A DNA stretch of 39,478 nt from an uncultured Candidatus Saccharimonadales bacterium. Lineage in GTDB: Bacteria; Patescibacteriota; Saccharimonadia; UBA4664; DATIHN01. The position numbers were made by a program, and so were the translations under genes. The DNA lies in contig CAYYRL010000001.1 in NCBI GenBank assembly GCA_964474165.1, forward strand, positions 13,854 through 53,331, read 5' to 3'. Shown here piece by piece: positions 5,821 to 25,641 of the stretch (position 1 is its first letter; every line of letters begins with the position of its first letter). Under the pieces are notes generated by a model. It had not been told where the DNA came from and made no database searches. It saw only the letters and a list, made by a program, of their open reading frames with translations.

Positions 5821-5988
5821 GTGCCCTTTGTCATAACAGGTGCTGCAATGATAATTGCCGGGGTGATTATGACCGGCTACTACGGCACCGTCGTTAGAGG
5901 TGGCGTAGGTCTGATCGCGCTCGGCCCAGTTGTGGCCATTATTGGCAGCCATTTATGGGAGCTGAGGGGGGACAATCATGAGCACTGA
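5821..5988 (+). CDS. Possible small (55 aa) two-helix membrane protein, absent from the ORF track
   Basis: GTG start preceded by AGAGGA. It translates to VPFVITGAAMIIAGVIMTGYYGTVVRGGVGLIALGPVVAIIGSHLWELRGDNHEH and overlaps the next ATG by 11 nt. Confidence 0.35.
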   Translation: MPFVITGAAMIIAGVIMTGYYGTVVRGGVGLIALGPVVAIIGSHLWELRGDNHEH

Positions 5989-6655
5989 ACTAATCAGGGT
6001 AGCTTTTGTTGAAGGTATCGGTGACCAACATCGCTGGCTCCATGTGGCCTGTAGCAAGTGGCCAAACGGCCCCTACGACATTTTGTTTACTCGGCATCGG
6101 GGCAAGTGGGATAACCTAGCTCGATACAAACTGACTCCTTCAACAGCACGGGCTATCGTTCGGTTGCTGCAGGCCCACCCTGATGTAGTTCAGGTGTTGG
6201 TTCGACCTTACCGCTTGGGAGTTAGAGTGAGACGGGGGGCTGATTGGGGTGCATTGGCGGCAACCCTCAAGGGTGAGCATCGCTGGGCTAGAGAAAGCGG
6301 GTTTTTGCCAGACTGGAGCTACTTCGATCTCCGGTTCGCCAATCAGCCCGATGATGACTCCACCCGAGCGTCTGGTAGTCAGGATTACCATACCCCAGGA
6401 TTGCCGTCAGCCCGTCATGTTGAGTTTGACCGCAGCCTCGACATTTGGGGTCAGGTCCCGGTAAGCTGGGCAGCGCGATCGGAGCCGGAAGTCATTCGGC
6501 TAGTAGAGCGCTTATTTAGCTGCCGTACCCTGATGCGTTTTTCGGTGTCTACCGGGCGTGTATGGGTGGTAAGAAATCGGGCCTATGCCCCAGAAGAAGT
6601 TGACGCTGAGGTTGAGACAGCAATCGCTCAGATAGAGCAGCCTGTCATGGCCTAA
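5978..6655 (+). CDS. Hypothetical protein (225 aa, Trp/Arg-rich, no recognisable motif)
   Basis: Long ORF with SD GAGGGGGG 5-6 nt upstream of the ATG, followed by a strong intrinsic terminator. Confidence 0.6.
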   Translation: MSTELIRVAFVEGIGDQHRWLHVACSKWPNGPYDILFTRHRGKWDNLARYKLTPSTARAIVRLLQAHPDVVQVLVRPYRLGVRVRRGADWGALAATLKGEHRWARESGFLPDWSYFDLRFANQPDDDSTRASGSQDYHTPGLPSARHVEFDRSLDIWGQVPVSWAARSEPEVIRLVERLFSCRTLMRFSVSTGRVWVVRNRAYAPEEVDAEVETAIAQIEQPVMA

Positions 6656-6860: not shown

Positions 6861-7913
6861 ATGATTAATCGTTTCTTGGGCATGCTGTCCCATGACATTG
6901 GTATTGATTTGGGAACCGCCAACACCCTGGTGTATGTCCGGGGGCGGGGAATTGTGATTAATGAACCGAGTGTGGTGGCGGTTAATACCAAGACCAACCA
7001 AGTCCTCGCCATCGGTGATGAAGCTAAGAAAATGGTGGGCAAGACGCCAGCTAGTATCGTGGCTACCAGGCCGCTGGTGGACGGGGTAGTTTCGGACTTC
7101 GAAGTCACCGAGCAGATGCTAAAGTACTTCATCGAGAAAGTTCACCGCGAAAGTTATGCAATATTTCCCAGGCCCAGGGTGGTGATTGGTATCCCATCAG
7201 GAGTAACCGAGGTCGAGAAGCGAGCCGTTGAAGATGCTGCGACCAATGCTGGCGCCAGGCAAACCTTTCTGATCGAAGAACCCATGGCCGCCGCCATTGG
7301 TTCCAGGCTGCCAATTCAGGATGCTGCTGGCTCAATGATTGTGGATATTGGCGGCGGCACCACTGAGGTAGCCATAATTTCTCTGGGCGGGATCGTAGCT
7401 TCCAGATCACTCAGAATTGCTGGCGATGAGCTCAGCGATGACATTGTGCAGTTTGCCCGCGAAGAATTTAACCTGCAAATTGGGGATCGCACGGCTGAGA
7501 ATATCAAAATTGCTGTCGGCTCAGCCTATCCGGTGGGCAAGCGCCAAGAAGTGCCGATGCGAGGACGTGATCTGGTAACAGGCTTACCCAAGGAGATTAT
7601 GGTCAGTGATGAGTTGATCCGCCGGGCTCTAACCAAGAGTGTGCGTTCTATCGTTGAGGCCATCAAAATCACCATTGAGGAAACGCCGCCAGAACTAGTG
7701 GCTGACATTATGGATCGAGGCGTGATTTTAGCCGGCGGTGGGGCCTTGCTCAAGGGCTTAGACGCCATGGTGCACAAGGAAACCCAGATGCCTGTCCATA
7801 TCGCTGATGACCCACTGACTAGCGTGGCTCGGGGTACTGGCTTAGTCCTAGAAGACCTGGACAGTCTGAAGGATGTACTGGTGCCGACTCAGTTTGGTAA
7901 GATCCCGCGCTAA
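6861..7913 (+). CDS. mreB: Rod-shape-determining actin homologue MreB
   Basis: DIGIDLGTANTLVY, VDIGGGTTEVA and ILAGGGALLKGLD actin-fold phosphate/adenosine motifs. Confidence 0.95.
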   Translation: MINRFLGMLSHDIGIDLGTANTLVYVRGRGIVINEPSVVAVNTKTNQVLAIGDEAKKMVGKTPASIVATRPLVDGVVSDFEVTEQMLKYFIEKVHRESYAIFPRPRVVIGIPSGVTEVEKRAVEDAATNAGARQTFLIEEPMAAAIGSRLPIQDAAGSMIVDIGGGTTEVAIISLGGIVASRSLRIAGDELSDDIVQFAREEFNLQIGDRTAENIKIAVGSAYPVGKRQEVPMRGRDLVTGLPKEIMVSDELIRRALTKSVRSIVEAIKITIEETPPELVADIMDRGVILAGGGALLKGLDAMVHKETQMPVHIADDPLTSVARGTGLVLEDLDSLKDVLVPTQFGKIPR

Positions 7914-8707
7914 TGCGTCGAGGGTATAATCGCACCATCTTGATCACTGTCTTGGTGGCGGCCGGCTTAGTACTGCTCGGCCGGGTCGGCGGCCTAAGAC
8001 CGGTAACGTCAGTGATCGACTACACTACGGCACCGGTTAGGGGGCTAGTCCGCTCCATCGGCCATGGCCTGTCTGGGGTCTTTACTTCCATCGGCAATAT
8101 CAGTCATCTCCAAGCCGAAAATGCCAAGCTAAAGGGTGAGGTGACTTCACTGAAGCAACAATTAGCGGCCGACACTGAGGTGGCCCAGCAAAACAAGCTA
8201 CTGCGCCAACAATTGCAGGTGGGCGAAGCTCCATCACAGAAGCTGGTTGCTGCTGATGTGATTGGTTATCAGCCCGACAACTTTCGCCAGTTTATTACGC
8301 TTAGCAAGGGTTCAAATGATGGCTTAAAGCCGGGCATGGCTGTGATTTCAAACGGGGTGCTGGTTGGTACCTTGTCCCAGGTTGGGAGGACCACTGCGCA
8401 AGTCTTTGTGGTGACAGATCCTAGCTTCAAAACCAATGGCATTGATCAAACTAGTCGGGCCAACGGTACGGTTCAGGGTCAGCTAGGGGCCGGACTGATA
8501 ATGAATAATATTGCTCAAGGGGATAGCGTCAAACCGGGCGATACCATTGTGACGAGCGGCCTAGGTGGATCCATGCCCAAGGGGATTGTTATTGGTCAGG
8601 TGGAGTCGGTCAATCAAAGTGACAACGAAGTCTTCCAAAGCGCCCAGTTGGGCTACAAAATTAAGATAAACAAGCTTGAACTGGTGTTTGTGGTGACTGG
8701 TTCATGA
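7913..8707 (+). CDS. mreC: Rod-shape-determining protein MreC
   Basis: N-terminal TM helix, a coiled-coil segment (ENAKLKGEVTSLKQQL), then a beta-rich domain. It lies after mreB with a TAATG overlap. Confidence 0.85.
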   Translation: MRRGYNRTILITVLVAAGLVLLGRVGGLRPVTSVIDYTTAPVRGLVRSIGHGLSGVFTSIGNISHLQAENAKLKGEVTSLKQQLAADTEVAQQNKLLRQQLQVGEAPSQKLVAADVIGYQPDNFRQFITLSKGSNDGLKPGMAVISNGVLVGTLSQVGRTTAQVFVVTDPSFKTNGIDQTSRANGTVQGQLGAGLIMNNIAQGDSVKPGDTIVTSGLGGSMPKGIVIGQVESVNQSDNEVFQSAQLGYKIKINKLELVFVVTGS

Positions 8708-9222
8708 ATCCGATTCGATCAATCCTGATCGTAATTGCCGTGGTCTGGTTGCAGTTGGCCTTCTTGCCGGTAGTAGGCCCCTGGGGCGTGGTGCCCAACT
8801 TGGCATTAGTGGCTGTGATTCTGATGGCCACCCGCCTGCCTTTATCATCAACCTTGATGATGGCCGTTGCCATCGGACTGCTATTAGACATTGGTAGCGG
8901 CAGTGATTTTGGCTTGCGGACTGCCTTCTACCCGTTACTGGCACTAATTACAGCCTCGCTAAGACAGTACGGCAGCGATTTAGATAACTTAAGTTTATTA
9001 TCAAGTGTGGTGGTGGCAGCCACGGTGTTATTTAACCTGGTAATTTTAACCAACTTAGCTCTGGCACGAGCTAGCTTGCCACTGCGCTACATTGGCATCC
9101 ACGTTTTAGTTGAGGCCGGACTTAACTTACTGCTACTTTTGCCGCTGCGCAGTATGTCGAAACGCTGGCTCAGTGGCCGCGGCGGCGAGCCGCTAGTAGC
9201 ACTCAAGGGGCGCCGTGGCTAA
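8704..9222 (+). CDS. mreD: Rod-shape-determining protein MreD (polytopic membrane)
   Basis: 172-aa all-hydrophobic ORF in the canonical position between mreC and PBP2. The call rests mainly on context. Confidence 0.65.
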   Translation: MNPIRSILIVIAVVWLQLAFLPVVGPWGVVPNLALVAVILMATRLPLSSTLMMAVAIGLLLDIGSGSDFGLRTAFYPLLALITASLRQYGSDLDNLSLLSSVVVAATVLFNLVILTNLALARASLPLRYIGIHVLVEAGLNLLLLLPLRSMSKRWLSGRGGEPLVALKGRRG

Positions 9223-11173
9223 ATCCGGATCCAAGTTTAGCTACAATCCAAAGCTGGGGGGATCGCGGCGAGTTCGAAGCGCCGATACCTCCCAGCATGA
9301 ATCGTGGATCGAGGGCATTTTGCCTGGTGACACCGAGGCCAGCCAGCCCGAAGGGGCGACCAGTCGCCGGCCGCTACTAGTGTTGGGCGGGACCATGGTG
9401 GCCGCCATCACGATTCTGGGATTGCAGCTCGCCCGGCTGCAATTAGTTGAAGGCAGTCGCAATCTGGGGTTGGCTGACGGTAACCGTATTTCACAGACTA
9501 TCACTCGCGCGCCTCGGGGCGTAATTTATGATCGCAATAAACAGCCCCTGGCCGAAAATGTGGCTAGTTTTGACATCACTGTGACGCCAGAACTGGTGCC
9601 GAAGTCAAAGGATAAGCGGCAACATATTTTTAACCGCATCGGTGAAATCTCGGGTGCCAAGACGGCTGATATTGAAAAACTAATGAACACTAAAGGCGTA
9701 AATCCACTGGAGCCGCGGCTGGTGGCCAGTAATGTGCCTCGTGATCAGGCACTTCTGTTTGATCAAGAAAGTAACAATCTAACTGGGTTCAGTCTGGACG
9801 TTAATCCCGTGCGCCAGTATCTTGACTCGGGACTATTGGGGGCAGTGCTGGGTTACACCGGCCGGGCCAGCAACCAGGATTTGAAGCGGCATCCCAGCTA
9901 CTTGCCAACTGATTATGTTGGTAAGGCCGGCATTGAGCAGCAATACGACAGCGTCCTCAAAGGCATTAACGGCTCCCAACAAACCGAAGTCGATGCTGAC
10001 CGGCGGCCAGTCAAAGTGCTTGATGCTACAGCCGCCAGGCCGGGATCGAACCTAGTGTTGAGCATCGACCAGGGCTTGCAGACCAGGTTTACCCAGGCTT
10101 TGGAGGCGCAGATGGATAAGGTTAATGCCACCCAAGCTGCTGGGGTGGCCATGAATCCTAAGACTGGGGAGATCCTGGCACTGGTTAGTCTGCCCGGCTT
10201 CAACTCCAACCAATTTGCCCACGGCATCTCTCAGGACGATTATTTGAAGCTCATCAACAATGCGGCTCAGCCGCTGTTTAATAAAGCCGTCAGTGGCACC
10301 TATCCCACCGGATCGATCATTAAGCCAATCGTAGGCTCAGCGGCCTTACGTGAAGGTACAATTACGCCCGGAACCACCGTTAATGACACTGGCGCCCTGG
10401 AGGTTCCGAATCCCTATAATCCTGACATTAAATACACTTATCACGGTTGGGAGCGGGGCGGACTGGGTATTATGAACTTGTCCAGAGCCATTGCTATGAG
10501 TTCGGATATTTACTTCTACACTGTGGGCGGCGGTTTTGGCAACGTCAAAGGTTTGGGTGTAGGCAAACTGTCCAGCTGGTACCAAAAGTTTGGCCTCGGC
10601 CGGCTGACCGGCATCGATTTGCCCAACGAATCAACCGGACGCGTCCCGACACCAGACTGGAAACAATCAGTTCTGCATCAGCCCTGGTATCTGGGTGATA
10701 CTTTTAACATTTCGGTTGGGCAGGGTGACATATTGGCTTCGCCGCTGCAAATGGCAACGGCCCTTTCAACCATAGTAAACAACGGCACAATCATTAAGCC
10801 GCATCTGTTAAAGCAGGTGATTGACACCAATGGCCAAGTCACCAAGCAGATTGATCCCCAAGTAGTGGGAAAGCTAGATATTGCCCCCAGCCATTTTCAA
10901 GTCGTGCGTGATGCCATGCGTGAGGTTGTTACCAGTGGCACCGGTTGTTGCTATATTCAGCAATTTGTACCGGTGCCAGTGGCGGGGAAGACCGGTACGG
11001 CTGAAACTGACCCGGAAGGTCACCGCCGGCCCAACGCTTGGTTTGAGGCCTTTGCGCCGTATCCCGATCCAAGTATTGTGATTGTGGCCTTGGTCCAAAA
11101 CGCCGGCGAGGGTTCTAATGTGGCGGCTCCAGCAGTTCGTGACACCCTGGCTTGGTACTTCAGTCCGCATTAG
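9215..11173 (+). CDS. mrdA: Penicillin-binding protein 2 (class B transpeptidase)
   Basis: N-terminal TM anchor and transpeptidase motifs TGSIIKP (SxxK) and GKTGTAE (KTG). It follows mreBCD. GTG start. Confidence 0.9.
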   Translation: MAKSGSKFSYNPKLGGSRRVRSADTSQHESWIEGILPGDTEASQPEGATSRRPLLVLGGTMVAAITILGLQLARLQLVEGSRNLGLADGNRISQTITRAPRGVIYDRNKQPLAENVASFDITVTPELVPKSKDKRQHIFNRIGEISGAKTADIEKLMNTKGVNPLEPRLVASNVPRDQALLFDQESNNLTGFSLDVNPVRQYLDSGLLGAVLGYTGRASNQDLKRHPSYLPTDYVGKAGIEQQYDSVLKGINGSQQTEVDADRRPVKVLDATAARPGSNLVLSIDQGLQTRFTQALEAQMDKVNATQAAGVAMNPKTGEILALVSLPGFNSNQFAHGISQDDYLKLINNAAQPLFNKAVSGTYPTGSIIKPIVGSAALREGTITPGTTVNDTGALEVPNPYNPDIKYTYHGWERGGLGIMNLSRAIAMSSDIYFYTVGGGFGNVKGLGVGKLSSWYQKFGLGRLTGIDLPNESTGRVPTPDWKQSVLHQPWYLGDTFNISVGQGDILASPLQMATALSTIVNNGTIIKPHLLKQVIDTNGQVTKQIDPQVVGKLDIAPSHFQVVRDAMREVVTSGTGCCYIQQFVPVPVAGKTGTAETDPEGHRRPNAWFEAFAPYPDPSIVIVALVQNAGEGSNVAAPAVRDTLAWYFSPH

Positions 11174-11206
11174 GTCCAACGGGAGTAGTTTTATAATAAA
11201 AAGTGA

Positions 11207-11221
11207 CAATAGTAACTATTG
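11207..11221. repeat. 7-1-7 palindrome in the greA upstream region (possible operator)
   Basis: caatagt-a-actattg, flanked by TATAAT (11192-11197) and tandem overlapping TTGACA boxes (11219-11224 and 11226-11231). Confidence 0.3.
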
Positions 11222-11348
11222 ACAGTTGACACCTGATGCGCAAAAATCGATAGGCAAACTGTTGCACCACTAAACATTAAGCATAAACCAAAGACAGCTC
11301 GGGTTTCCCCGGCGATTTTTTTTAACGCTCTGGGGCAAAGGAGGAAAA

Positions 11349-17878: not shown

Positions 17879-19201
17879 ATGAAAGTTGCGATTCTCGGTT
17901 ATGGTGTTGAGGGGCGAGAGGCTTATATCTGGTGGGGAAAGAAGAATGGTCACGACTGTACCATTTTTGATGAAAATCCAGACCTTGAAGTTCCAGAAGG
18001 GGTAAAACTGGTATCAGGTTCAGACTGGAAACTTGATGGATATGACCTGTTGGTTAGGTCTCCAGGAATTCGCCCAGATCGCTTACCTGAGGGGGCCAAT
18101 GTTACTTCAGTCATGAAAGAATTTATGGCCAAATGCCCAGCTCCTATAATTGGAGTCACGGGCACCAAGGGGAAGGGTACAACTTGTTCGCTTATATTCT
18201 ATATGCTAAGGGAAGCTGGCAAATGTCCCCATATCGGTGGCAATATTGGTTATCCGCCGCTATTGTTCCTGGAAGAAGTCTGGCCCACTGACTATGTGGT
18301 ACTGGAGTTATCAAGTTTCCAACTGATGGATTTAACCCAGAGTCCCCAGGTGGCAGTTTGTCTGATGATTGTGCCAGAACACTTGAATTGGCACCCAGGA
18401 ATGGGGGAATATACCGAAGCTAAGGCCAATATCTTCAAATTCCAGTCAAAAACTGATAAGGCGGTTTTTAATGCCAAAAATCAATACTCTAAGCAAATCG
18501 CCCAGCTCTCGAAGGGAGCCAAGATTCCTTATCTGGACAAGGGAGGGGCATGGGTAGACGGTGAGGTTATAAGGTACGGCAAGCAGGAGGTTTGTAAAGT
18601 TTCTGATGTCGCCCTCCTGGGTCCCCACAACCTCGAGAATATTTGTGCAGCCATAACCGCTGTTTGGGATATAATTGGTGATCCAGAGCCCATCAGAAAG
18701 GCCATAAGCGGTTTCACAGGACTGGAGCATCGTTTGGAGTTGGTGGTGGAAACTGACGGCGTGAGGTATTACAATGACTCATTTTCGACTACACCGGAAA
18801 CGGCCATTGCCGCCATCCAGGCTTTTAATGAGCCAAAGGTGTTAATTCTGGGCGGATCAGATAAGGGATCTGATTATACCGCTCTAGCGGCTGAGGTGGC
18901 CGATGCCAATATCAAACAGGTGATTCTGATCGGCGATAGCGGCAACTCTAAGCACAGCTCGGCCTCGCCTAAGCTGGCCGAGTCCTTAAAGGTCCAGGGC
19001 GTTAAGAACGTGAAGTCCCTGGTTCGCAGTGGCGGTGCCACCATGGACGAGGTAGTCGAGCAGGCAGCTAAGCTAGCCAAAGCTGGCGACGTGGTCCTAC
19101 TAAGTCCAGCCTGTGCCAGCTTTGATATGTTTACAGGTTACAAGCAGCGCGGCGAACAGTTTAGGCAAGCTGTTGCAAAACTCGCTGCAATTGAGCAATA
19201 A
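17879..19201 (+). CDS. murD: UDP-N-acetylmuramoyl-L-alanine--D-glutamate ligase
   Basis: Mur ligase P-loop GVTGTKGKGTT, and MurD-like N-terminal Rossmann domain and C-terminal domain. Confidence 0.9.
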   Translation: MKVAILGYGVEGREAYIWWGKKNGHDCTIFDENPDLEVPEGVKLVSGSDWKLDGYDLLVRSPGIRPDRLPEGANVTSVMKEFMAKCPAPIIGVTGTKGKGTTCSLIFYMLREAGKCPHIGGNIGYPPLLFLEEVWPTDYVVLELSSFQLMDLTQSPQVAVCLMIVPEHLNWHPGMGEYTEAKANIFKFQSKTDKAVFNAKNQYSKQIAQLSKGAKIPYLDKGGAWVDGEVIRYGKQEVCKVSDVALLGPHNLENICAAITAVWDIIGDPEPIRKAISGFTGLEHRLELVVETDGVRYYNDSFSTTPETAIAAIQAFNEPKVLILGGSDKGSDYTALAAEVADANIKQVILIGDSGNSKHSSASPKLAESLKVQGVKNVKSLVRSGGATMDEVVEQAAKLAKAGDVVLLSPACASFDMFTGYKQRGEQFRQAVAKLAAIEQ

Positions 19202-19817
19202 CCGGCTCCTCCGGTTGAAGAACCAGCGCCCGATCACCAGCAATAGCCCTGATAAGCTCTTCAATCCAGTGATAGTGGGTGCAACCCAGAACTATGACAT
19301 CGGCTTTTTGATCTAGAGCGGCTTCAAGCCGCTGTTTGATGTGACCTTGGTCAATTTGGTTATTTTCTATCATCATCGCCCAATCACTACAGTCAGGCTC
19401 TAATACTAAGACACCCCCAGCATAAGCCTGTTTCAGTTGTTGGTAGCGCTGGCTCCTTAAGGTATTCGGAGTCGCACAGACGGCAATTACCCCGGTTTTG
19501 GTTAGGTCAGCTGCCGGCTTAACCATTGGTTCCATACCTACCAGCGGCACCGACAACTGGGGTCGCAATTGGTCAATCAAGTTGGTTGTGACAGTGTTGC
19601 AGGCGATTACAATTATCTGGCAGCCCTGGGCTTCAAGTTCTAAAAGTTTTGGTAAAACCCAGTTTACAATATGATCTAACGGTTTATTACCATAGGGTAA
19701 ATGCTTTTTGTCAGCAATATAAACCACCCGGGTTCCAGGTAGAGCTGCCTTAATAGCACTGACAACGGCTTCACCGCCAACACCGGAGTCAAAAACGCCA
19801 ATAGTAGGACTAGTCAT
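19161..19817 (-). CDS. murI: Glutamate racemase
   Basis: GVFDSGVGG, IACNT and LGCTHY motifs with the two catalytic Cys. ATG 19817 is preferred because TACAAT lies 6 nt upstream; the track start is 19835. The 3' end overlaps murD by 41 nt. Confidence 0.9.
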   Translation of the reverse strand: MTSPTIGVFDSGVGGEAVVSAIKAALPGTRVVYIADKKHLPYGNKPLDHIVNWVLPKLLELEAQGCQIIVIACNTVTTNLIDQLRPQLSVPLVGMEPMVKPAADLTKTGVIAVCATPNTLRSQRYQQLKQAYAGGVLVLEPDCSDWAMMIENNQIDQGHIKQRLEAALDQKADVIVLGCTHYHWIEELIRAIAGDRALVLQPEEPVIAQLQRVLQQLA

Positions 19818-19823
19818 GCTGAT

Positions 19824-19829
19824 ATTGTA
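19824..19829 (-). promoter_or_regulatory. -10 box placed for a leaderless murI mRNA
   Basis: The minus strand reads TACAAT, then 6 nt (atcagc), then ATG (19817). Confidence 0.4.
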
Positions 19830-19906
19830 GCCCATAACAAAAAATAGACAGCGTTGTGATAACTAACAATTAAGCTAGTTATGTTTATAAATTACCACAA
19901 AAAACA

Positions 19907-19935
19907 TTGACAAATTTGTCATATAGTGATATGTT
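19907..19935 (+). promoter_or_regulatory. Near-consensus rightward promoter overlapped by a perfect 14-bp palindrome
   Basis: TTGACA (19907-19912), a 17-nt spacer, then TATGTT (19930-19935). The palindrome tgacaaatttgtca (19908-19921) covers the -35 box and may be an operator. The promoter points into the inverted-repeat-bounded island. Confidence 0.5.
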
Positions 19936-20019: not shown

Positions 20020-20045
20020 AGCTGAATAGTCAAAGGTCTATTAAG
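20020..20045. repeat. Left arm of the inverted repeat bounding the GC-rich island
   Basis: agctgaatagtcaaag-gtct-attaag. The 16-nt and 6-nt blocks are exact reverse complements of 23213-23228 and 23204-23209. The arm overlaps the local hairpin aggtct-atta-agacct (20034-20049). Confidence 0.85.
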
Positions 20046-20301
20046 ACCTAAACCAAAAACTTAAATGCTCTTTGTGGGCAAGGTTCTGCATGCTGCTGTC
20101 TGCCGCCCAGGCAGCGCATGTAGGCCCTTGCTCATTAGAGCAATACAGTTTGTGCATCTCCGCGTGGGGCTGTACAACCGAGATCTCGCTCGCCCAATGG
20201 GCGAATGGCATGCAAATGCTAAACGCCCGGCGAGAGGGCGACATCACCGGAAACAGTCCAGACCCATCTTCGGACGGGTCTACAACACACTGGAGAGCTG
20301 T

Positions 20302-21135
20302 ATGGGCAAACGCAAGATAACTGCCCATCTGGCTGAAGAACTCGGTACCATTCCTGAAACCCTGTATGAAATGACGGGGAAGAAGGACGGCCAGTTCATT
20401 GACGAAGAGAAGCTGAAAGAGCTCTTCGCTCACTACAGCCACGATGAGGCAGAAGTCAGGCGCGACCCAATCCAGGACTTTCAGACCTGGTGGGTCGATC
20501 ACGTCAAGTTCGTCGGCAAGTTCAGGCGTCTGCGTCGGTACCGCAAGCGAGTTTTGAGCCGGGGCCAGATGGTTCCGATCATGCTCGTGAAGTACCGCAC
20601 ACCGACCGGCCATGAGCGGCTGATGCAGGAGAAGACGGTGGCGACCCGCATGAAAGTGGGGTTGTTGCCATACTACCTCTTGGGCAAGGACTTGGAGGAA
20701 GCGGGAATCAACTTGATTTCCGAATTCCCCAAGGCCCCAACCCTCGAGACCACCTGTTTCGTCTGTGACGAGCCGCTGTTTCGGCGGCAAGGCGACTTGT
20801 ATTCGCACTTGCGCGATGTACTGGAAGCGGTCTTGACCGGCAAGGTCGAGCCCGCCAGAGTCAACTTCAAACGCCAGCACCAAGAGTGTTGGCAGGCAAC
20901 CAAAATCCGGGAACGGATTGAGGGGGCAGAAGCAGAAGTCATCGCTGAGCTGCGAATGAGTGGTGGTAAGAGAAATCCGGTGGCCGAGGCGCAAGCCCTG
21001 GCCGCTGAAAAGATTCGCTTGCAAAAGCGAGTCGATGGTTTCTTGGCCCACCTGCGTCGCATCAAGGTGGTTCCCGCCAGCCGCATTCAACTGTTCGAGC
21101 AGCAATTTGCTGCCGCTCTCGAAGGGATCAAGTAA
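20302..21135 (+). CDS. Island ORF-A: basic hypothetical protein (277 aa) with an N-terminal helix-turn-helix-like segment
   Basis: GGAG lies 6 nt upstream of ATG 20302. ITAHLAEELGTIPETLYEM resembles an HTH. The C-terminal part is a charged, coiled-coil-like region. The frame is open from 20065, but that extension has no SD and is low-complexity. Confidence 0.6.
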   Translation: MGKRKITAHLAEELGTIPETLYEMTGKKDGQFIDEEKLKELFAHYSHDEAEVRRDPIQDFQTWWVDHVKFVGKFRRLRRYRKRVLSRGQMVPIMLVKYRTPTGHERLMQEKTVATRMKVGLLPYYLLGKDLEEAGINLISEFPKAPTLETTCFVCDEPLFRRQGDLYSHLRDVLEAVLTGKVEPARVNFKRQHQECWQATKIRERIEGAEAEVIAELRMSGGKRNPVAEAQALAAEKIRLQKRVDGFLAHLRRIKVVPASRIQLFEQQFAAALEGIK

Positions 21136-21136
21136 C

Positions 21137-21679
21137 ATGGCCGGACCGATTTTCGACCCGACGGGCGGGGCCGGTGGGGGAGACCTCATCGACGAAGCCG
21201 TCATCGTGGACGAAGACGAAGCGGGCCTCGAGCCCGTAGACGACTACACCGACGACGACCCGATCCTGGCCCGAGGCCGGGACCTGCTCCGGCAGGACGA
21301 GCGCAAGACCAAGGACCTGCCGGCTCGTTTGCGCGGACTGCAGGCCTACATGGAGGACAACAAGCTTTCCAGTGCGGACCTCGCTGAGGTTCTGGCTGGT
21401 GAGACGGTGGAAGAGAAGGTCGTGCTTCCCGGCATCCCCAAGGACGCCGAGATCATCGACTACACGGAAACCTACGCGGTGGCGATGGACGCGAATCGTC
21501 CACGTCTCTACCACAAGGGTGCCACCACCTACATCGGAACCGAGACGCGGTGGTCAAGTCGAGCCGCTTTCGAGCGTGACTACGACAAGGCCGACCACAT
21601 TCTCGACGAGCTGGCCGAGCGCAAGCGCGGCAAGAGCAAGGGTGGCGGCTCGGGACTGCTCAGCCGGCTCCGGCGCTAG
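21137..21679 (+). CDS. Island ORF-B: hypothetical protein (180 aa) with an acidic N-terminus and a basic tail
   Basis: The ATG lies 1 nt after the ORF-A stop (taacatg). The N-terminus is DLIDEAVIVDEDEAGLEPVDDYTDDD and the C-terminus is KRGKSKGGGSGLLSRLRR. GC3-rich codons. Confidence 0.6.
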   Translation: MAGPIFDPTGGAGGGDLIDEAVIVDEDEAGLEPVDDYTDDDPILARGRDLLRQDERKTKDLPARLRGLQAYMEDNKLSSADLAEVLAGETVEEKVVLPGIPKDAEIIDYTETYAVAMDANRPRLYHKGATTYIGTETRWSSRAAFERDYDKADHILDELAERKRGKSKGGGSGLLSRLRR

Positions 21680-21687
21680 CCGGAGCC
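21666..21687 (+). other. Perfect 9-bp GC-rich stem-loop spanning the ORF-B stop codon
   Basis: ggctccggc-gcta-gccggagcc. There is no T-tract. It lies 25 nt upstream of the ORF-C ATG. Confidence 0.6.
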
Positions 21688-21712
21688 CAGACCCCTCGAA
21701 GGGAGGGAAGCA

Positions 21713-23110
21713 ATGAACTGGTTCCTTACCCTGATGTTAGTCGGTCTGGTGGCGGGAGTTTTCCTTGCCCTCTGGTTGACTGGCTTCCGGGTCATTGCAC
21801 CGCTGGCAGCCATCTTCGTGGCTGTGCTCTACCTGCACTGGTTCGGACACAGCATGAGCTGGTTCGGACGCGAACCGTGGGCGCCTTGGTGGCTGGTGGT
21901 GGTTTCGTTGGTCCTACTGATCATCGTCACCATCATCACGCTGCTGGCACCCGCGACTTGGACCGGACTCGGATTACTGACGGTGATCGCCATGGTCATC
22001 ATCGGCGTCTTGCTTCTGGCTTCGACGACCAACGATGACAAGGATCACCCGCAGAAGACTGCCACGGATGGCACCACCACGACGACCACAACCACCCAGC
22101 CCAAGAACACCACCAAGGTGCCAACGCTCAAGGGCTACGAGCTGCACTACTACTCCTCGGACCCCGGTGTGCCGGGCGGGTACTTCGGTCCCGCCTGTGT
22201 ACCCCACGGAAACGCGGACAAGTGCAAGCGAGACATCCTGGAGCGCGTCAAGCACGACCCGATGCTCTGCTCGGTCATGCTGCGCAATTTCAACGTGTTG
22301 AAGGGAGTTCCCGACAAGCCGGTGCGCATGCCCGGTGAGTCGGCGGCCGACTATGCCGGCCGGTTGAACGACTGGAACACTCAGGTGGAGAACGCCCGAA
22401 AAGCCACGGCCAGCAAGCTCGCGAAGAGCGCAGCACGCCGTAAGCAGTGTGCGGCCAAGGTCGCATTCGGGTTCGATACCATGCAGGGTTTCCACATTGA
22501 GGCCCTGCACGGACGGTTCTACACCGAGTTCACCGACGACAACCACAACGTCACCCAGACGTCGAAGGAAATGGATCCGTCCAAGAACTTCGCCATCGTG
22601 GCTACGACGCCCGATGGTGTGGTGCACTACATCAAGGTGGACTGCGGCCATCAGACGGTTTCGAAGGCGCCGATCCCTGGGGTTCCACCCCAGACGCCGC
22701 CTCCACCGCCGCCACCACCCAAGAAGCCACCGCCGCCTCCGCCGCCGCCGGTGCACCACAAGTGTCAGGACCACCCGTGGCCTGAGATCTGTGGGACGCC
22801 GAACAGCGGTCCGGAGCAGCAAGGTGTGCAGGAGCACAAGCAGAAGCCGACTCCGGGGTACAAGAGAGGCGACTACGAGCAGACGGTTCAGGCTCAAAAG
22901 CCACCGGCTGACAAGTACAAGCCAAATCCCCAGTACGGCAGTAACCCACCGGAGGGTCAGCACTCTCCACCGGGTGGCTCCGGCAATCCCTCGGATCCCA
23001 CGGGAACCAACGGCGGGGTCGAAAACCCCAAGCCCAATCCCAATCCGGGTCCACCGGTGTCAACACCACCGCCCAACGGCTGTTGGGACGATCCCACTTT
23101 GTGTGGGTAA
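21713..23110 (+). CDS. Island ORF-C: polytopic membrane protein (465 aa) with Thr8 linker, Cys-containing domain, P8-KK-P8 tract and P/G/N-rich tail
   Basis: GGAGG lies 6 nt upstream of the ATG. Four hydrophobic segments occupy the first ~105 aa. TTTTTTTT follows, and PPPPPPPPKKPPPPPPPP is encoded at nt 22697-22750. All nine Cys lie after the TM region. The protein ends ...NGCWDDPTLCG. Confidence 0.7.
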   Translation: MNWFLTLMLVGLVAGVFLALWLTGFRVIAPLAAIFVAVLYLHWFGHSMSWFGREPWAPWWLVVVSLVLLIIVTIITLLAPATWTGLGLLTVIAMVIIGVLLLASTTNDDKDHPQKTATDGTTTTTTTTQPKNTTKVPTLKGYELHYYSSDPGVPGGYFGPACVPHGNADKCKRDILERVKHDPMLCSVMLRNFNVLKGVPDKPVRMPGESAADYAGRLNDWNTQVENARKATASKLAKSAARRKQCAAKVAFGFDTMQGFHIEALHGRFYTEFTDDNHNVTQTSKEMDPSKNFAIVATTPDGVVHYIKVDCGHQTVSKAPIPGVPPQTPPPPPPPPKKPPPPPPPPVHHKCQDHPWPEICGTPNSGPEQQGVQEHKQKPTPGYKRGDYEQTVQAQKPPADKYKPNPQYGSNPPEGQHSPPGGSGNPSDPTGTNGGVENPKPNPNPGPPVSTPPPNGCWDDPTLCG

Positions 23111-23203: not shown

Positions 23204-23228
23204 CTTAATGATCTTTGACTATTCAGCT
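23204..23228. repeat. Right arm of the inverted repeat bounding the GC-rich island
   Basis: cttaat-gat-ctttgactattcagct is the reverse complement of the left arm, except for the 3-4 nt core. Confidence 0.85.
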
Positions 23229-23325: not shown

Positions 23326-24459
23326 ATGTTCAGGAAACTGATCATGGCACTGGCTGTTGTGGGTATTACTGCCATGCCTTTCGCTGTTACAGCCGCTAAC
23401 GCTGTAACTATTGAGAGTACCACTCAGGTCGCTAATCAGACCGCTGGTGATACCTCTTACAAAGATAGCGTCAACGCCAAAGTCGACGACGTGGTTAAGG
23501 TCCAAGTTTGGTTCCACAACCGCGAAAACGCCGATAGTGGTAAAACCGCTAACAATCTAAACGTAAAAGTAAACATTCCAACTACTCCAGGTACGAAGCA
23601 GACTATTACCGGTACTGTTGGGGCTGCAAACTCCAACACCGTTACCGATACTGCTACTGTTAACCTATCACTGGCTAACGCTCACCTAGAGTACATCCCT
23701 GGCACCGCTTACTGGCGCCACAACGCTGGATCTAACTCCAACGTTAACTATGTCACCACCAAAATCAGCGACGCTGTCACTGGTGCTAATGGTGTCCTAG
23801 TGGGTCCTAACTTGCAGCCCTGTTTCAACTTTGAGTCGACGGTTACCGTCATGGCTCGAGTTAAAGCCAATGGTGTAAGCATCACCAAGCAAGTCCGAAA
23901 AGTTGGCGATTCAGCCTGGGTTACCCAGATGAACGCTAACCCCGGTGACACCATTCAATACATGATTACCTTCAAAAACGAAGGTAACACCGTTTTGAAC
24001 AACGTCATCGTCGGCGACAACCTGCCTCCCCACGAAACTTACGTGGCTGGCACTACCATGCTTAAGAACGGTAACAACCCCAGTGGCGTAAAGATCGCCA
24101 ACGATAACATCGCCAATGGCGGTATCAACGTTGGTAGCTACAATCCTGGTGCCGTCGGCTATGTCATGTTTAACGTCAAAATTGATGCTAACATCGACAA
24201 TGGCTGTCACAACCTGCAAAACGTGGGTATTGTTCGTCCGGAAGGGATGAACGAGTTCTTCAACACAGCCACAGTTAAAGTGTGTGTTGAAACTCCTAAG
24301 ACCCCTCCGACTGAAACTCCGACCCAACCTCTACCTCAAACGGGTGGTGAGACTGCTCTAGCTGGTGTGGCTGGCACAGGTGTACTTGGTTACGCCGTCA
24401 ACGCCTACCGCAAGAGTAAGCGCTCTGTCGTTGATGCACTTAAGAACATTAAGCGCTAA
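23326..24459 (+). CDS. Sortase-anchored (LPXTG-type) surface protein with DUF11-like repeat domain
   Basis: Strong SD AAGGAG lies 7 nt upstream of ATG 23326. Signal peptide MFRKLIMALAVVGITAMPFAVTAANA. The DUF11-like pattern is GDTIQYMITFKNEGNTVLNNVIVGDNLP. LPQTG (nt 24331-24345) is followed by a hydrophobic helix and the tail RKSKR. Confidence 0.85.
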   Translation: MFRKLIMALAVVGITAMPFAVTAANAVTIESTTQVANQTAGDTSYKDSVNAKVDDVVKVQVWFHNRENADSGKTANNLNVKVNIPTTPGTKQTITGTVGAANSNTVTDTATVNLSLANAHLEYIPGTAYWRHNAGSNSNVNYVTTKISDAVTGANGVLVGPNLQPCFNFESTVTVMARVKANGVSITKQVRKVGDSAWVTQMNANPGDTIQYMITFKNEGNTVLNNVIVGDNLPPHETYVAGTTMLKNGNNPSGVKIANDNIANGGINVGSYNPGAVGYVMFNVKIDANIDNGCHNLQNVGIVRPEGMNEFFNTATVKVCVETPKTPPTETPTQPLPQTGGETALAGVAGTGVLGYAVNAYRKSKRSVVDALKNIKR

Positions 24460-24490
24460 ACACACAAACTGAACGCTTCAGTGTGTAACA

Positions 24491-24517
24491 AAAAAGACCC
24501 TCCCGGGTCTTTTTTGT
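24491..24517. terminator. Bidirectional-looking rho-independent terminator
   Basis: aaaaagaccc-tccc-gggtctttttt. It is preceded by a second hairpin, acac-(aa)-actgaa-cgc-ttcagt-gtgt (24462-24486). Confidence 0.75.
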
Positions 24518-24534
24518 TTCCAGCTGTCTCCAGG

Positions 24535-24540
24535 TATAAT
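24535..24540 (+). promoter_or_regulatory. -10 box placed for a leaderless prfB mRNA
   Basis: TATAAT, then 6 nt (acggtt), then ATG 24547; no SD. Confidence 0.45.
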
Positions 24541-24546
24541 ACGGTT

Positions 24547-25641
24547 ATGTCAGAATCATCAGACATCTTCAAACGGGCCGAAGTGCTCCAAGGCAAAATC
24601 ACCGATGCCATGGAGCGGCTTGGCGTGTCCGCAGATGAAACCAAGCTGGCTGAGCTAGAACAAACGGCAGCTGAGCCAGACTTTTGGAGTAATTCGGCTC
24701 AGGCGACGGTTACCACTCAGGAGCTGGCTGCCCTGAAGCGTCACGTCGAAAGTTGGCAAGGACTATTAAACGAAGTTAACGATTTGGTGGAGCTGCTGCA
24801 GCTAGACGATGAATCAGGGACTGGGGAGTTAGCCGACCATTTAGGGAGACTGGAGGCTGACTACGGCGCCCGGGAGCTAGAACTGAAGCTGTCAGGTCAT
24901 TACGATAAACACTCGGCCATACTGTCGATTTTTGCTGGTACCGGCGGCACTGATGCCCAGGATTGGGCGGCCATGTTAGAGCGCATGTATCTAAGGTACT
25001 GTGAGCGAGCCGGCTTTAATACCGAAATCCTCGATCGCTCAGCCGGCGAAGAAGCCGGTATCAAAAGCGTAACTATTGAAGTTAATGGTCCGTTTGCCTT
25101 CGGCTATTTACAGAGCGAGAAGGGTGTTCACCGGCTGGTGCGCCTCAGCCCGTTTAACGCCGATAACCTGCGCCAAACTTCCTTTGCCCTAGTAGATGTG
25201 ATTCCGCAAATTGATTTGCCGGCAGCGGTGGAAATTGACCCCAAAGACCTGCGAATCGATGTTTTTCGTAGCGGTGGCCACGGTGGCCAAAGCGTTAATA
25301 CTACGGATTCAGCAGTGCGTCTGACTCACATCCCAACAGGCACGGTAGTTAGCATCCAAAATGAGCGCTCGCAGCTGCAGAACAAAGACAAGGCTATGGC
25401 GGTGCTGCGCTCACGACTAGCGCTATTAATGGCCGAGCAGCACCAAGAGCAGCTATCTGAGATTAGGGGACAGGTTAGCAGTCCCGACTGGGGCCAGCAG
25501 ATCCGGTCCTACGTCTTGCACCCTTATACTAAGGTCAAGGATCACCGCACCAAGGCTGAAACTAGCGACACCCAGGCCGTCTTGGACGGTAAGCTGGATC
25601 AATTTATTGAGGCCTATTTAACCAGCCAGGTTGGCAAATAA
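24547..25641 (+). CDS. prfB: Peptide chain release factor 2 (single uninterrupted frame)
   Basis: SPF tripeptide (RLSPFNA) and GGQ (SGGHGGQSVNTTDSAVR). The track ORF from 24481 would run through the upstream terminator, so ATG 24547 is preferred. Confidence 0.92.
   Translation: MSESSDIFKRAEVLQGKITDAMERLGVSADETKLAELEQTAAEPDFWSNSAQATVTTQELAALKRHVESWQGLLNEVNDLVELLQLDDESGTGELADHLGRLEADYGARELELKLSGHYDKHSAILSIFAGTGGTDAQDWAAMLERMYLRYCERAGFNTEILDRSAGEEAGIKSVTIEVNGPFAFGYLQSEKGVHRLVRLSPFNADNLRQTSFALVDVIPQIDLPAAVEIDPKDLRIDVFRSGGHGGQSVNTTDSAVRLTHIPTGTVVSIQNERSQLQNKDKAMAVLRSRLALLMAEQHQEQLSEIRGQVSSPDWGQQIRSYVLHPYTKVKDHRTKAETSDTQAVLDGKLDQFIEAYLTSQVGK

What the first reader, a model, noticed from the sequence alone, without database searches (positions are those of the whole stretch)
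21713..23110. Island ORF-C: 4-TM anchor + Thr8 linker + Cys-containing ectodomain + P8-KK-P8 + P/G/N-rich tail
Seen in sequence:
- The first ~105 residues contain four long hydrophobic segments (WFLTLMLVGLVAGVFLALWL, VIAPLAAIFVAVLYLHWF, WWLVVVSLVLLIIVTIITLLAP, LGLLTVIAMVIIGVLLLAS).
- A run of eight Thr follows, then a ~230-aa domain.
- That domain is followed by PPPPPPPPKKPPPPPPPP (nt 22697-22750) and a low-complexity tail (NPKPNPNPGPP) ending CWDDPTLCG.
- All nine Cys lie after the membrane anchor, which is consistent with an extracytoplasmic, possibly disulfide-bonded domain.

Rigid polyproline stalks and Thr-rich (often glycosylated) linkers are typical of high-GC Gram-positive surface proteins. 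They are not seen in any other gene in this window. I cannot assign the protein to a family. It could be a spacer-mounted surface ligand, a spread or exclusion protein of an actinomycete plasmid or phage, or something new.
Basis: partly seen in the sequence, partly recalled or inferred. Interest (0 to 1): 0.6.

Follow-up and report, generated by a model that had tools for sequence, protein, structure and literature searches.

The report
Swappable surface protein in RNA-bracketed cassette
ORF-C is a real membrane-anchored surface protein of a Saccharibacteria (TM7) episymbiont; it belongs to a large uncharacterised protein family with no recognisable fold and sits in an old, fast-evolving, GC-rich surface-gene locus framed by a conserved long-range stem, so it is not foreign DNA from an actinomycete plasmid or phage.

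Summary
ORF-C (21713-23110, +, 465 aa) has four N-terminal TM helices, a Thr8 linker, nine post-anchor Cys, P8-KK-P8 at 22697-22750 and a P/G/N-rich tail.

The "island" reading does not hold. The host is a 660-kb Saccharimonadia genome. ORF-C homologues lie directly upstream of a DUF11/LPxTG surface-protein gene in every locus examined, and that gene is followed by prfB (with ftsEX where the sequence reaches that far) in most of them. They are GC-rich wherever the host genome is about 50% GC.

ORF-C belongs to an unnamed Patescibacteria family of at least 197 clusters (50% identity level). Members have an N-terminal anchor, an alpha/beta ectodomain (pLDDT 86-94; no PDB, viral-library, Pfam or NCBIfam match) ending in one invariant Cys (consensus RADCGNP; here KVDCGHQ), and a Pro-rich tail of about 150 aa with a free C-terminus. 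The globular domain is therefore membrane-proximal and the proline tail points outward.

The ectodomain is exchanged between lineages, while the anchor, tail motif, flanking genes and bracket are inherited vertically. In 14 of 14 loci the cassette is bracketed by an inverted repeat that co-varies. Its mismatches are all G.U on the sense strand (15 against 0 A.C), which points to a long-range mRNA stem, not a transposon end or a DNA flip switch.

I infer, without direct evidence, a variable cell-surface or host-contact role exercised together with the DUF11 neighbour.

The parts
19907..19935 (+). Promoter-like site TTGACA-17-TATGTT (with TG), upstream of the left arm; candidate start of the cassette transcript
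   Evidence: 10 of 12 consensus matches; a consensus match only, not shown to be functional
20020..20038 (+). Left (5') arm of the bracketing stem, AGCTGAATAGTCAAAGGTC
   Evidence: pairs with 23210-23228 (18 WC + 1 G.U, -28.8 kcal/mol); only two copies in the genome; conserved and co-varying in relatives
20065..21135 (+). ORF-A (true start possibly ATG 20302); weakly conserved partner with a CxxC element, no family match
   Evidence: homologues in G002 and G031 at 20-24% identity
21134..21679 (+). ORF-B (acidic head, basic tail); weakly conserved partner, no family match
21702..21707 (+). Shine-Dalgarno GGAGGG of ORF-C
21713..23110 (+). ORF-C, 465 aa (P0001): the finding itself
21713..22033 (+). 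N-terminal four-helix membrane anchor (aa 1-107); resembles the anchor of G002's version (same family)
22034..22162 (+). Disordered Thr-rich linker including Thr8 (aa about 108-150)
   Evidence: pLDDT below 50
22163..22672 (+). Globular alpha/beta ectodomain (aa about 151-320): helices 168-179, 183-192, 211-238, 240-256, then strands 258-317; 50% identical to G031's, barely alignable with G002's
   Evidence: (pLDDT 86-94)
22643..22645 (+). Codon of Cys311, the only residue invariant in 99 family members (motif KVDCGHQ here, RADCGNP in the consensus)
22697..22750 (+). P8-KK-P8 polyproline spacer (aa 329-346)
   Evidence: Pro-rich region after the Cys is family-wide
22763..22861 (+). Conserved tail motif C..(8)..CG..SGPEQQ.VQEH.Q.PTPGY (aa 351-383), shared with G002, P0004, G053, G077, G093 and G129
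23081..23107 (+). C-terminal Cys-loop CWDDPTLCG (C457-C464); similar C-terminal C..DP..C loops in G002 and in G008's ectodomain-less proteins
23210..23228 (+). Right (3') arm of the bracketing stem, GATCTTTGACTATTCAGCT, between ORF-C and the DUF11 gene
23326..24459 (+). DUF11 (PF01345) surface protein with LPQTG sorting signal: the constant downstream partner of the ORF-C family
   Evidence: the same neighbour in all loci examined

Best explanation
ORF-C is a resident, vertically framed surface protein of a Saccharimonadia episymbiont. It is one member of a large unnamed Patescibacteria family.

**Shown**
- It is anchored in the membrane by N-terminal helices, with the rest of the protein outside.
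- A Thr-rich linker leads to a compact alpha/beta ectodomain that matches nothing in the libraries searched. The ectodomain ends in a single invariant cysteine.
- A rigid polyproline and low-complexity tail of about 150 aa follows, with a free C-terminus carrying a conserved Cys-bracketed motif and a terminal Cys-loop.
- The gene always sits directly upstream of a DUF11/LPxTG wall-anchored protein.
- Its ectodomain module is exchanged between lineages, while the anchor, tail motif, neighbours and bracket follow the genome's own relatedness.
- The cassette is closed by a co-varying inverted repeat. Every transition mismatch in that repeat is G.U on the sense strand.

**Inferred**
- The arms pair in the sense transcript and form a long-range 5'/3' helix. 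The helix would control processing, stability or translation of the cassette mRNA; a 19-28-bp duplex is a natural RNase III substrate.
- The Pro-rich tail threads outward through the cell wall. The membrane-proximal ectodomain, through its free thiol, engages a partner, most plausibly the co-encoded DUF11 protein or another envelope component.
- Together they form a variable surface unit under diversifying selection from host recognition, phage or other surface antagonists.
For: **Real coding gene:**

**Host and context**
- 660-kb genome of the class Saccharimonadia.
- Same position upstream of DUF11/LPxTG in G031, G002, G053, G077, G093, G129, L042, L043, G007, G008, G333, G440 and G413. prfB (with ftsEX where the sequence reaches) follows in most; G333 has pyk and pgk there instead.

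**Family**
- 197 representative clusters at E<=1e-3 and 137 at <=1e-10.
- Found in 29 of 401 class genomes and in 6 genomes of other classes.

**Architecture**
- 90 of 99 members have an N-terminal TM anchor. Cys311 is invariant. A Pro-rich tail follows, and there is no LPxTG.
- Four members have only that one Cys.
- Positive-inside rule: 42 against 16. PKD domains in 4 members.

**Fold:** pLDDT 86-94 for residues 160-340. No match in PDB or BFVD and no PDB sequence match.

**Mosaic**
- prfB 74% and DUF11 75% identical to G002, against 62% and 26% to G031.
- The ectodomain is 50% identical to G031's and barely alignable with G002's.

**Bracket**
- 14 of 14 loci, 7 of them tested prospectively.
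- 91.7% of cells paired, 6 pairs with double-sided changes, 0 of 500 shuffles reach the covariation score, and one G.U pair is invariant.
- 260 WC, 15 G.U, 0 A.C, 5 other on the sense strand. The sense duplex is always at least as stable as the antisense one.
- 0 of 300 shuffles give the window's pair.
- The arm motif occurs only twice in the genome.
- RNase III is encoded in the genome.
Against: - Whether both arms lie on one transcript is not shown.
- The G.U bias could be inflated by strand-asymmetric mutation, and it rests on about 9 independent events.
- The arms in G093 and G129 are only 12-13 nt and were found at relaxed settings that also return chance pairs.
- The function of the ectodomain and of the invariant Cys is inferred from architecture only. 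No conserved His or other catalytic partner is seen.
- The elevated GC3, which persists in lineages whose proteins have diverged to 20-30% identity, is not explained by this model.
- The family is detectable in only about 7% of class genomes. It is therefore either often lost or replaced (as in G008) or too divergent to detect.
Confidence: 0.6

Rival explanations
1. Envelope or cell-division housekeeping factor. The family would be a structural, wall-spanning membrane protein working with the neighbouring cell-wall and division genes (murD, murI/murL, ftsEX, PcsB-like CHAP hydrolase), or with sortase-dependent anchoring of the DUF11 protein. It would not be a host-contact or antagonism determinant.
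For: - Constant neighbourhood of murD, secA, M16 peptidase, prfB, ftsE, ftsX, CHAP and S41 protease.
- The N-terminal anchor plus Pro-rich spacer resembles wall-spanning segments.
- The genome has sortases and an LPxTG neighbour.
Against: - Housekeeping envelope factors are normally well conserved. This family diverges to 20-30% identity between genera.
- Its ectodomain is swapped between lineages.
- The ectodomain can be missing altogether within a genus (G008 against G007).
- The family is undetectable in most class genomes.
Confidence: 0.2
2. Invertible DNA segment (phase variation). The inverted repeats would be recombination sites for an invertase encoded elsewhere, and flipping the 3.2-kb segment would switch the cassette on or off relative to the outside promoter.
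For: - 16-28-nt inverted repeats bracket the segment exactly.
- A promoter-like site lies outside the left arm.
- The Mu G and P1 C segments are precedents for kb-sized invertible segments (my own knowledge).
Against: - All 14 loci, and all six independent assemblies of the G002-type locus, have ORF-C co-oriented with the DUF11 gene (and the locus calls).
- The mismatch spectrum is strand-specific (15 G.U against 0 A.C on the sense strand). This is not expected for a dsDNA recombination site.
- One asymmetric G.U position is conserved in all six genomes with homologous arms.
- In G413, and possibly G093, the 5' arm overlaps the ribosome-binding region, which suggests an RNA-level role.
Confidence: 0.07
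3. Horizontally acquired island. On this view it is a three-gene cassette imported from a high-GC Gram-positive organism, plasmid or phage, for instance from the actinobacterial host, with the inverted repeats as terminal repeats of a non-autonomous mobile element.
For: - Sharp GC and GC3 jump that coincides with the arms.
- Actinobacteria-like Pro/Thr-rich linkers.
- Terminal inverted repeats are present and there is no recombinase inside.
- Phyletic patchiness.
Against: - Same insertion point, same downstream partner and homologous arms in genomes from different families and classes.
- Proteins have diverged to 20-30% identity with undiminished GC3, so this is not a recent import.
- All family members that carry a name are from Saccharimonadales or Saccharimonas.
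- No PHROG hit and no transposase.
- Only two copies of the arm in the genome, and no target-site duplication visible.
- In a 62%-GC Patescibacteria genome the locus shows no GC contrast.
Confidence: 0.06

Closest known systems
5'UTR-3'UTR base pairing in bacterial mRNAs: S. aureus icaR (PMC3868564) and B. subtilis hbs (PMC5737220)
   Same: Complementary segments upstream and downstream of a coding region on one mRNA. In icaR the pairing masks the SD and creates an RNase III substrate. In hbs a 14-bp 5'/3' interaction modulates RNase Y cleavage. In G413 the 5' arm contains GAGGAGG and the 3' arm contains CCTCCTC.
   Different: Here the helix is longer (16-28 bp in most loci) and closes 1.2-3.9 kb carrying one to three genes. 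It is conserved with covariation across a class and beyond, and it always frames a GC-rich, fast-evolving surface-protein gene. No transcript or cleavage data exist for it.
RNase III processing stems (leader-trailer helices) that bracket 16S and 23S rRNA in bacterial rrn operons (my own knowledge)
   Same: A kilobase-scale loop closed by a long, conserved, co-varying helix formed from sequences flanking the functional RNA. RNase III is encoded in this genome.
   Different: The enclosed RNA is a protein-coding message. No boxA-type elements were tested, and no Rfam family matches.
Gram-positive wall-associated surface proteins with Pro-rich wall-spanning regions, and TonB-type proteins (N-terminal anchor plus Pro-rich spacer plus C-terminal domain) (my own knowledge)
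   Same: Membrane or wall attachment at one end and a rigid proline-rich segment long enough to cross the wall. K/E-P repeats occur in several members, for example (EEPPK)n in G077.
   Different: The order is anchor, then globular domain, then Pro-rich tail, with a free C-terminus. There is no LPxTG signal (1 of 99 members) and no TonB_C or any other Pfam domain.
Strain-variable surface-structure loci ('flexible islands') kept at a fixed chromosomal site and exchanged by homologous recombination between conserved flanks, such as capsule and O-antigen loci (my own knowledge)
   Same: A fixed site with conserved flanks, contents that are highly divergent or replaced between relatives (G007 against G008; G000 against G002), and phylogenetic incongruence of the variable module.
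   Different: The contents are one to three small protein genes, not glycan-synthesis clusters. The conserved 'flanks' are short complementary arms that appear to act in RNA. GC3 is raised rather than lowered relative to the genome.

Membership tests
Sortase (PF04203) | Match to the sortase profile / beta-barrel transpeptidase fold | tested here: not met
   No Pfam hit for ORF-C or for any of 99 family members. No Foldseek match. Two canonical sortases are encoded elsewhere in the genome.
Sortase (PF04203) | Conserved His-Cys-Arg catalytic residues (TLxTC motif) | tested here: not met
   The Cys is invariant but lies in RADCGNP. No conserved His occurs anywhere in the alignment.
LPxTG cell-wall-anchored surface proteins | N-terminal signal peptide and C-terminal LPxTG + hydrophobic segment + basic tail | tested here: not met
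   ORF-C ends in CWDDPTLCG. Only 1 of 99 members has an LPxTG-like string in the last 60 aa, and only 2 have any TM segment after the Cys.
Pam pilus system of CPR bacteria (PamA/B pilins, PamC/D chaperones, PamR) | Ig-like pilins with signal peptides, chaperones with a C-terminal TM helix, operon next to ATP-synthase genes | tested here: not met
   NCBIfam gives no Pam match for ORF-C. The paper places the operon beside ATP synthase and describes a different architecture (PMC13278184). This locus lies beside prfB and ftsEX.
Insertion sequence / non-autonomous TIR element | Terminal inverted repeats | tested here: met
   19-nt arms at 20020-20038 and 23210-23228.
Insertion sequence / non-autonomous TIR element | Transposase, several copies per genome, target-site duplication, variable insertion sites | tested here: not met
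   No transposase domain. The arm motif occurs only twice in the genome. No direct repeat flanks the arms. The chromosomal position is the same in 14 genomes.
Site-specific invertible segment (Hin/Gin/Cin type or tyrosine-invertase inverton) | Inverted-repeat recombination sites bracketing the segment | tested here: met
Site-specific invertible segment (Hin/Gin/Cin type or tyrosine-invertase inverton) | Both orientations present in populations or assemblies | tested here: inconclusive
   Only one orientation is seen in 14 loci and in 6 independent assemblies of one locus.
5'UTR-3'UTR paired mRNAs (icaR / hbs type) | Complementary segments upstream and downstream of the coding region, maintained by compensatory change | tested here: met
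   6 pairs with double-sided changes and 0 of 500 shuffles reaching the covariation score. 15 G.U against 0 A.C on the sense strand.
5'UTR-3'UTR paired mRNAs (icaR / hbs type) | Both segments on one transcript; pairing changes RNase cleavage or translation | not testable with these tools
   No transcript data. Only a promoter-like site upstream of the left arm and an RNase III gene in the genome are known.

The most novel reading that the evidence does not exclude
The ORF-C family could be the exchangeable specificity determinant of the Saccharibacteria cell surface. On this reading a cassette-borne ectodomain, with its invariant reactive cysteine, decides which host cell (or which phage or antagonist) the episymbiont engages. 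It would be expressed from a previously undescribed kind of 'stem-closed' mRNA that is processed like a stable RNA. The persistently host-like (high-GC) codon usage would be a functional part of this system and not a relic of transfer.
Probability: 0.2. Interest if true: 0.85.

Novelty: new variant of a known kind. Interest (0 to 1): 0.62.

Why it matters
All cultured Saccharibacteria are obligate episymbionts of Actinobacteria, and the molecules that set host recognition are largely unknown beyond type IV pili (PMC9894109 and PMC11623550, as listed).

This locus offers a concrete candidate that can be tested genetically. It encodes a membrane-anchored protein family with a confidently predicted ectodomain that matches nothing in the libraries searched. 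The family has a single invariant cysteine, is always paired with a wall-anchored DUF11 protein, and has its ectodomain swapped between lineages.

The expression frame is also unusual. It is a conserved, co-varying, kilobase-spanning helix around a protein-coding cassette whose synonymous sites stay GC-rich over deep evolutionary time. If confirmed, it would extend 5'/3'-UTR pairing from single anecdotal mRNAs to a lineage-wide design, and it would pose a clear open problem: why the GC3 is maintained.

For annotation, the result warns against calling such GC-rich blocks in CPR genomes 'horizontal transfer from the host'.

Tried and rejected
- **Curated family scans.** Pfam, PHROGs and NCBIfam on ORF-A, B and C and on relatives gave no meaningful hit.
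- **Word-indexed homology search.** It found only one or two relatives per query. It badly underestimates the family, which the exhaustive profile search then revealed.
- **Genome-contig scan.** The search for related loci on genome contigs with ORF-C found nothing.
- **First AF2 model.** With a 9-row alignment the model was poor (pLDDT 55.6) and its Foldseek run was uninformative. It was repeated with 99 rows. There was still no match; the best viral hit, a pleolipovirus VP4, has E 0.04 and TM 0.09, which is not significant.
- **PDB sequence profile search.** 0 hits.
- **ORF-C as a substitute sortase.** Rejected: there is no conserved His and canonical sortases are present.
- **Link to the Pam pilus.** Rejected.
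- **Contig ends.** The recurrent contig ends just upstream of ORF-C' in five assemblies looked like structural variation, but they coincide with a GC-rich hairpin and error-laden ends, so they are an assembly artefact.
- **Homology between the ORF-C ectodomain and the 'CGNP'-ending module of neighbouring LPxTG proteins.** Only a local 38-column match (hhalign probability 9%, E 0.0036), so not demonstrated.
- **Empty-site test in sister genome G008.** The site is filled with a different cassette, so no empty site was found.
- **Rfam scan of the cassette.** Nothing near threshold.
- **Long antisense ORFs inside the cassette.** ORFs such as 21974..22963 (-) are the expected by-product of high GC and were not pursued.
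Full report
**1. The observation**

ORF-C is present exactly as described.
- It is an ATG-initiated ORF at 21713..23110 (+) of 465 aa. A GGAGGG Shine-Dalgarno sequence lies 5 nt upstream.
- The four hydrophobic segments, the Thr8 run, the nine Cys (all after the anchor), P8-KK-P8 at nt 22697-22750 and the P/G/N-rich tail ending in CWDDPTLCG are all there.
- Codon-position composition (GC3 0.77, GC1 0.59, GC2 0.48) shows strong periodicity, and the protein has conserved homologues. The frame is therefore very probably translated.
- The surrounding block of about 3.2 kb is compositionally distinct: 56-63% GC against about 50%. The difference lies at synonymous sites, with GC3 0.71-0.83 against 0.45-0.62 in murD, murI, the DUF11 gene, prfB and ftsE. 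Pro/Gly/Ala-rich composition alone does not explain it.

**2. Whose genome, and is it an island?**

The window belongs to a 660-kb, 89%-complete genome of the class Saccharimonadia; a same-family relative is named 'Candidatus Saccharimonadales bacterium'. So the host is a TM7 episymbiont and not a high-GC Gram-positive organism.

The cassette is not a local insertion. An ORF-C homologue sits directly upstream of a DUF11/LPxTG-type surface-protein gene, which prfB (and usually ftsE, ftsX and a CHAP hydrolase) follows. The upstream neighbour varies (murI, murL, M16 peptidase or secA). This holds in the following genomes.
- G031, a different family of the same order.
- G002, the same family.
- G053 and G077.
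- G093 and G129.
- The P0004 locus, L042.
- L043.
- G007 and G008.
- G440, a different class.
- G333 has the same ORF-C and DUF11 pair but pyk and pgk downstream.

Where the host genome is about 50% GC, the cassette is 60-67% GC. In the 62%-GC genome G440 there is no contrast.

There are no PHROG, Pfam or NCBIfam hits for ORF-A, B or C, and no second copy in the genome. Every named family member is from Saccharimonadales or Saccharimonas. The 'actinomycete plasmid or phage island' reading is therefore not supported.

**3. The protein family**

The word-indexed search found a single relative. An exhaustive HMMER search with a nine-member profile found 197 representative clusters (50% identity level) at E<=1e-3, of which 137 are at <=1e-10.

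With a 99-member profile the family is detected in 29 of 401 sampled Saccharimonadia genomes (24 of 186 genera) and in six genomes of other Patescibacteria classes. It is patchy.

Architecture across 99 members:
- 90 have N-terminal TM helices (1-7 of them).
- A Ser/Thr-rich or coiled-coil linker follows.
- The ectodomain ends in the signature RADCGNP, which is KVDCGHQ in ORF-C. This Cys (C311) is the only invariant residue.
- A Pro-rich, low-complexity tail follows, with a median length of about 150 aa.
- Only 1 of 99 has an LPxTG-like string, and 2 of 99 have a later TM segment.
- Four members contain no cysteine other than the invariant one. It therefore cannot be merely a structural intramolecular disulfide, and it is probably a free or intermolecularly engaged thiol.

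Topology points to an external ectodomain.
- K+R is richer in the 15 residues before the last TM helix than after it in 42 members against 16.
- Single-TM members such as G093's have Arg-rich N-termini.
- G031's two-TM version has the loop HRLRRRHVRRP between its helices.
- PKD domains occur in four members.

The anchor is N-terminal, so the globular domain is membrane-proximal and the polyproline tail is the distal part.

**4. Fold**

With the 99-row alignment, AlphaFold2 gives pLDDT 86-94 for residues about 160-340. The fold is four helices (168-179, 183-192, 211-238, 240-256) packed against a five-to-six-stranded sheet (258-317) that ends at Cys311. The linker (107-156) and the tail are disordered.
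- Foldseek against the PDB and the BFVD viral library returns nothing significant: best E 0.04-0.1 and TM at most 0.11.
- A profile search of PDB sequences returns zero hits.
- No AlphaFold-DB library was available, so 'no detectable relative' applies only to the libraries searched.

**5. Mosaic evolution of ORF-C**

| Feature | G000 vs G002 (same family) | G000 vs G031 (different family) |
|---|---|---|
| prfB identity | 74% | 62% |
| DUF11 neighbour identity | 75% | 26% |
| Bracket arms | identical core | several co-varied pairs |
| ORF-C ectodomain | barely alignable (26% overall, gap-rich) | 50% over residues 132-349 |
| ORF-C four-helix anchor and CG..SGPEQQ.VQEH.Q..PGY tail motif | resemble each other | G031 lacks the motif |

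So the ectodomain module has been exchanged between lineages inside a vertically inherited frame.

An extreme case is the same-genus pair G007 and G008. G008 has the same site, the same arms and a GC-rich trio, but its membrane proteins lack the globular ectodomain. A 'CGNP'-ending module sits instead at the N-terminus of its DUF11/LPxTG protein. That this module is homologous to the ORF-C ectodomain is not demonstrated; there is only a local 38-column hhalign match at 9% probability.

**6. The bracket**

An earlier first-reader note (e1-3323179) pointed to an inverted repeat around the cassette. I confirmed it at 20020-20038 and 23210-23228. It is 19 nt long with 18 Watson-Crick pairs and one G.U. 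It is absent from 300 shuffles, and those two arms are the only copies in the genome.

The same arrangement occurs in all 14 loci where both boundaries could be read.

| Locus | Arm length | Notes |
|---|---|---|
| G002, L042, G007, G008 | 16-25 nt | window-type arms |
| G031, L043 | 26-27 nt | same arm family, several co-varied positions |
| G053, G077 | 17 nt | bracket ORF-C alone |
| G333 | 28 nt | brackets ORF-B + ORF-C |
| G093, G129 | 12-13 nt | perfect and mutually homologous, found at relaxed settings, so weaker |
| G440 | 23 nt | out-of-class genome |
| G413 | 15 nt | perfect; the 5' arm contains GAGGAGG |

Seven of these (L043, G007, G008, G440, G413, and G093 and G129 at relaxed settings) were examined only after the idea had been formed.

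On the six homologous arm pairs:
- 91.7% of cells pair, against 26-46% when the partner is slid by 1-3 columns.
- Six pairs show changes on both sides.
- No shuffle out of 500 reaches the covariation score.
- One G.U pair is invariant in all six.

Across all 14 loci the sense strand shows 260 Watson-Crick cells, 15 G.U, 0 A.C and 5 other. That is about nine independent G.U events against none of the opposite kind. Wherever mismatches exist, the sense duplex is more stable than the antisense one.

A double-stranded recombination or transposase site should show no such strand preference. All assemblies also share one orientation. I therefore favour pairing of the two arms in the sense transcript.
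- A helix of that length is a natural RNase III substrate, and the genome encodes RNase III.
- A promoter-like site lies just upstream of the left arm.
- Known analogues are the icaR and hbs 5'/3'-UTR interactions (PMC3868564, PMC5737220) and the leader-trailer helices of rRNA operons.
- No Rfam family matches.
- Co-transcription and cleavage are not shown.

**7. How ORF-C most likely works**

Shown:
- an N-terminally anchored, outward-facing protein;
- a compact ectodomain with one invariant cysteine;
- a long proline-rich tail with a free end carrying a conserved Cys-bracketed motif (aa 351-383) and a terminal Cys-loop;
- obligatory genetic linkage to a DUF11/LPxTG protein;
- module swapping;
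- a framed, GC-rich expression cassette.

Inferred:
- the tail spans the wall and presents its terminal motifs at the surface;
- the membrane-proximal ectodomain uses its thiol to hold or modify a partner, with the DUF11 neighbour as the obvious candidate;
- the pair forms a variable surface unit under diversifying selection from host recognition, phage or other surface antagonism.

A housekeeping envelope role is the main rival, at about 0.2. It is disfavoured by the extreme divergence, the module exchange and the dispensability of the ectodomain in G008. The raised GC3 remains unexplained. GC-biased gene conversion at a recombination hot spot, selection on mRNA structure, and codon adaptation are candidates that I could not separate.

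**8. Comparison and novelty**

- ORF-C is not a sortase: there is no profile match and no conserved His, and two canonical sortases lie elsewhere.
- It is not an LPxTG protein.
- It is not part of the Pam pilus system.
- It is not carried on an IS-like element.
- It works like a wall-spanning surface protein and is expressed from something that works like a 5'/3'-paired mRNA, but it belongs to none of the described families.

I rate it a new variant of known kinds: an uncharacterised protein family and fold in a conserved, unusual expression frame.

Earlier follow-up notes on other genomes reached similar readings of the bracket. They are unchecked AI notes, and I count them as agreement, not as evidence.

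Noticed in passing
window 21666-21687; L036 about 5940-6000: A strong GC-rich hairpin straddles the ORF-B stop, just upstream of ORF-C. In the G002-type locus, five independent assemblies (four Logan runs and one MAG) end within about 140 nt of the equivalent hairpin, one of them with error-laden sequence. This is probably a sequencing or assembly weak point, but it could also be a functional intercistronic structure.
   Followed up: partly
L052 (G008:C1) 7320-11253: Sister genome G008 has the same site, window-type arms and a GC-rich trio. Its two membrane proteins (199 and 310 aa) have only a TM helix plus a low-complexity tail ending in a C..D....DG.C loop. The '...WAIIKSCGNPV' module is at the N-terminus of the DUF11/LPxTG protein instead. 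This suggests domain shuffling between the membrane-anchored and the wall-anchored partner.
   Followed up: partly
L031 9424-10224; L030 3183-4514: Additional small LPxTG-type surface proteins next to the locus in G077 and G333 share a module of about 140 aa with no Pfam match. It ends in FAV(I/M)..CGNP(V/M) and is 31-33% identical between genomes.
   Followed up: partly
L054 (G413:C4) 5945-5959 and 7158-7172: In this out-of-class genome the perfect 15-nt arms are ATCTGAGGAGGTCGA and TCGACCTCCTCAGAT. The 5' arm contains the SD-like GAGGAGG and the 3' arm an anti-SD, as in icaR-type translational masking.
   Followed up: no
window 24481-25641: The prfB (RF2) ORF as listed starts at GTG 24481 with a 22-aa extension that is absent from relatives. 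Alignment with G002 starts at Met23 (ATG about 24547). The gene is a single open frame here, with no programmed frameshift site needed.
   Followed up: no
L042 3358-4653 versus window 19161-19835: The related locus L042 carries a MurL-type epimerase (PF26299/PF26298) after murD where the window has murI (glutamate racemase) on the opposite strand. So close relatives use alternative routes to D-Glu.
   Followed up: no
P0005 (G053 homologue, MEX0748466.1): One family member is labelled 'DNA-binding protein' in its NCBI record. Nothing in the sequence (TM anchor, coiled coil, ectodomain, acidic tail) supports that name.
   Followed up: no
window 21974-22963 (-), 20041-21204 (-): Long antisense ORFs (329 and 387 aa) overlap ORF-C and ORF-A. 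They are the expected by-product of stop-codon-poor GC-rich sequence and have no homologues of their own in the searches made.
   Followed up: no
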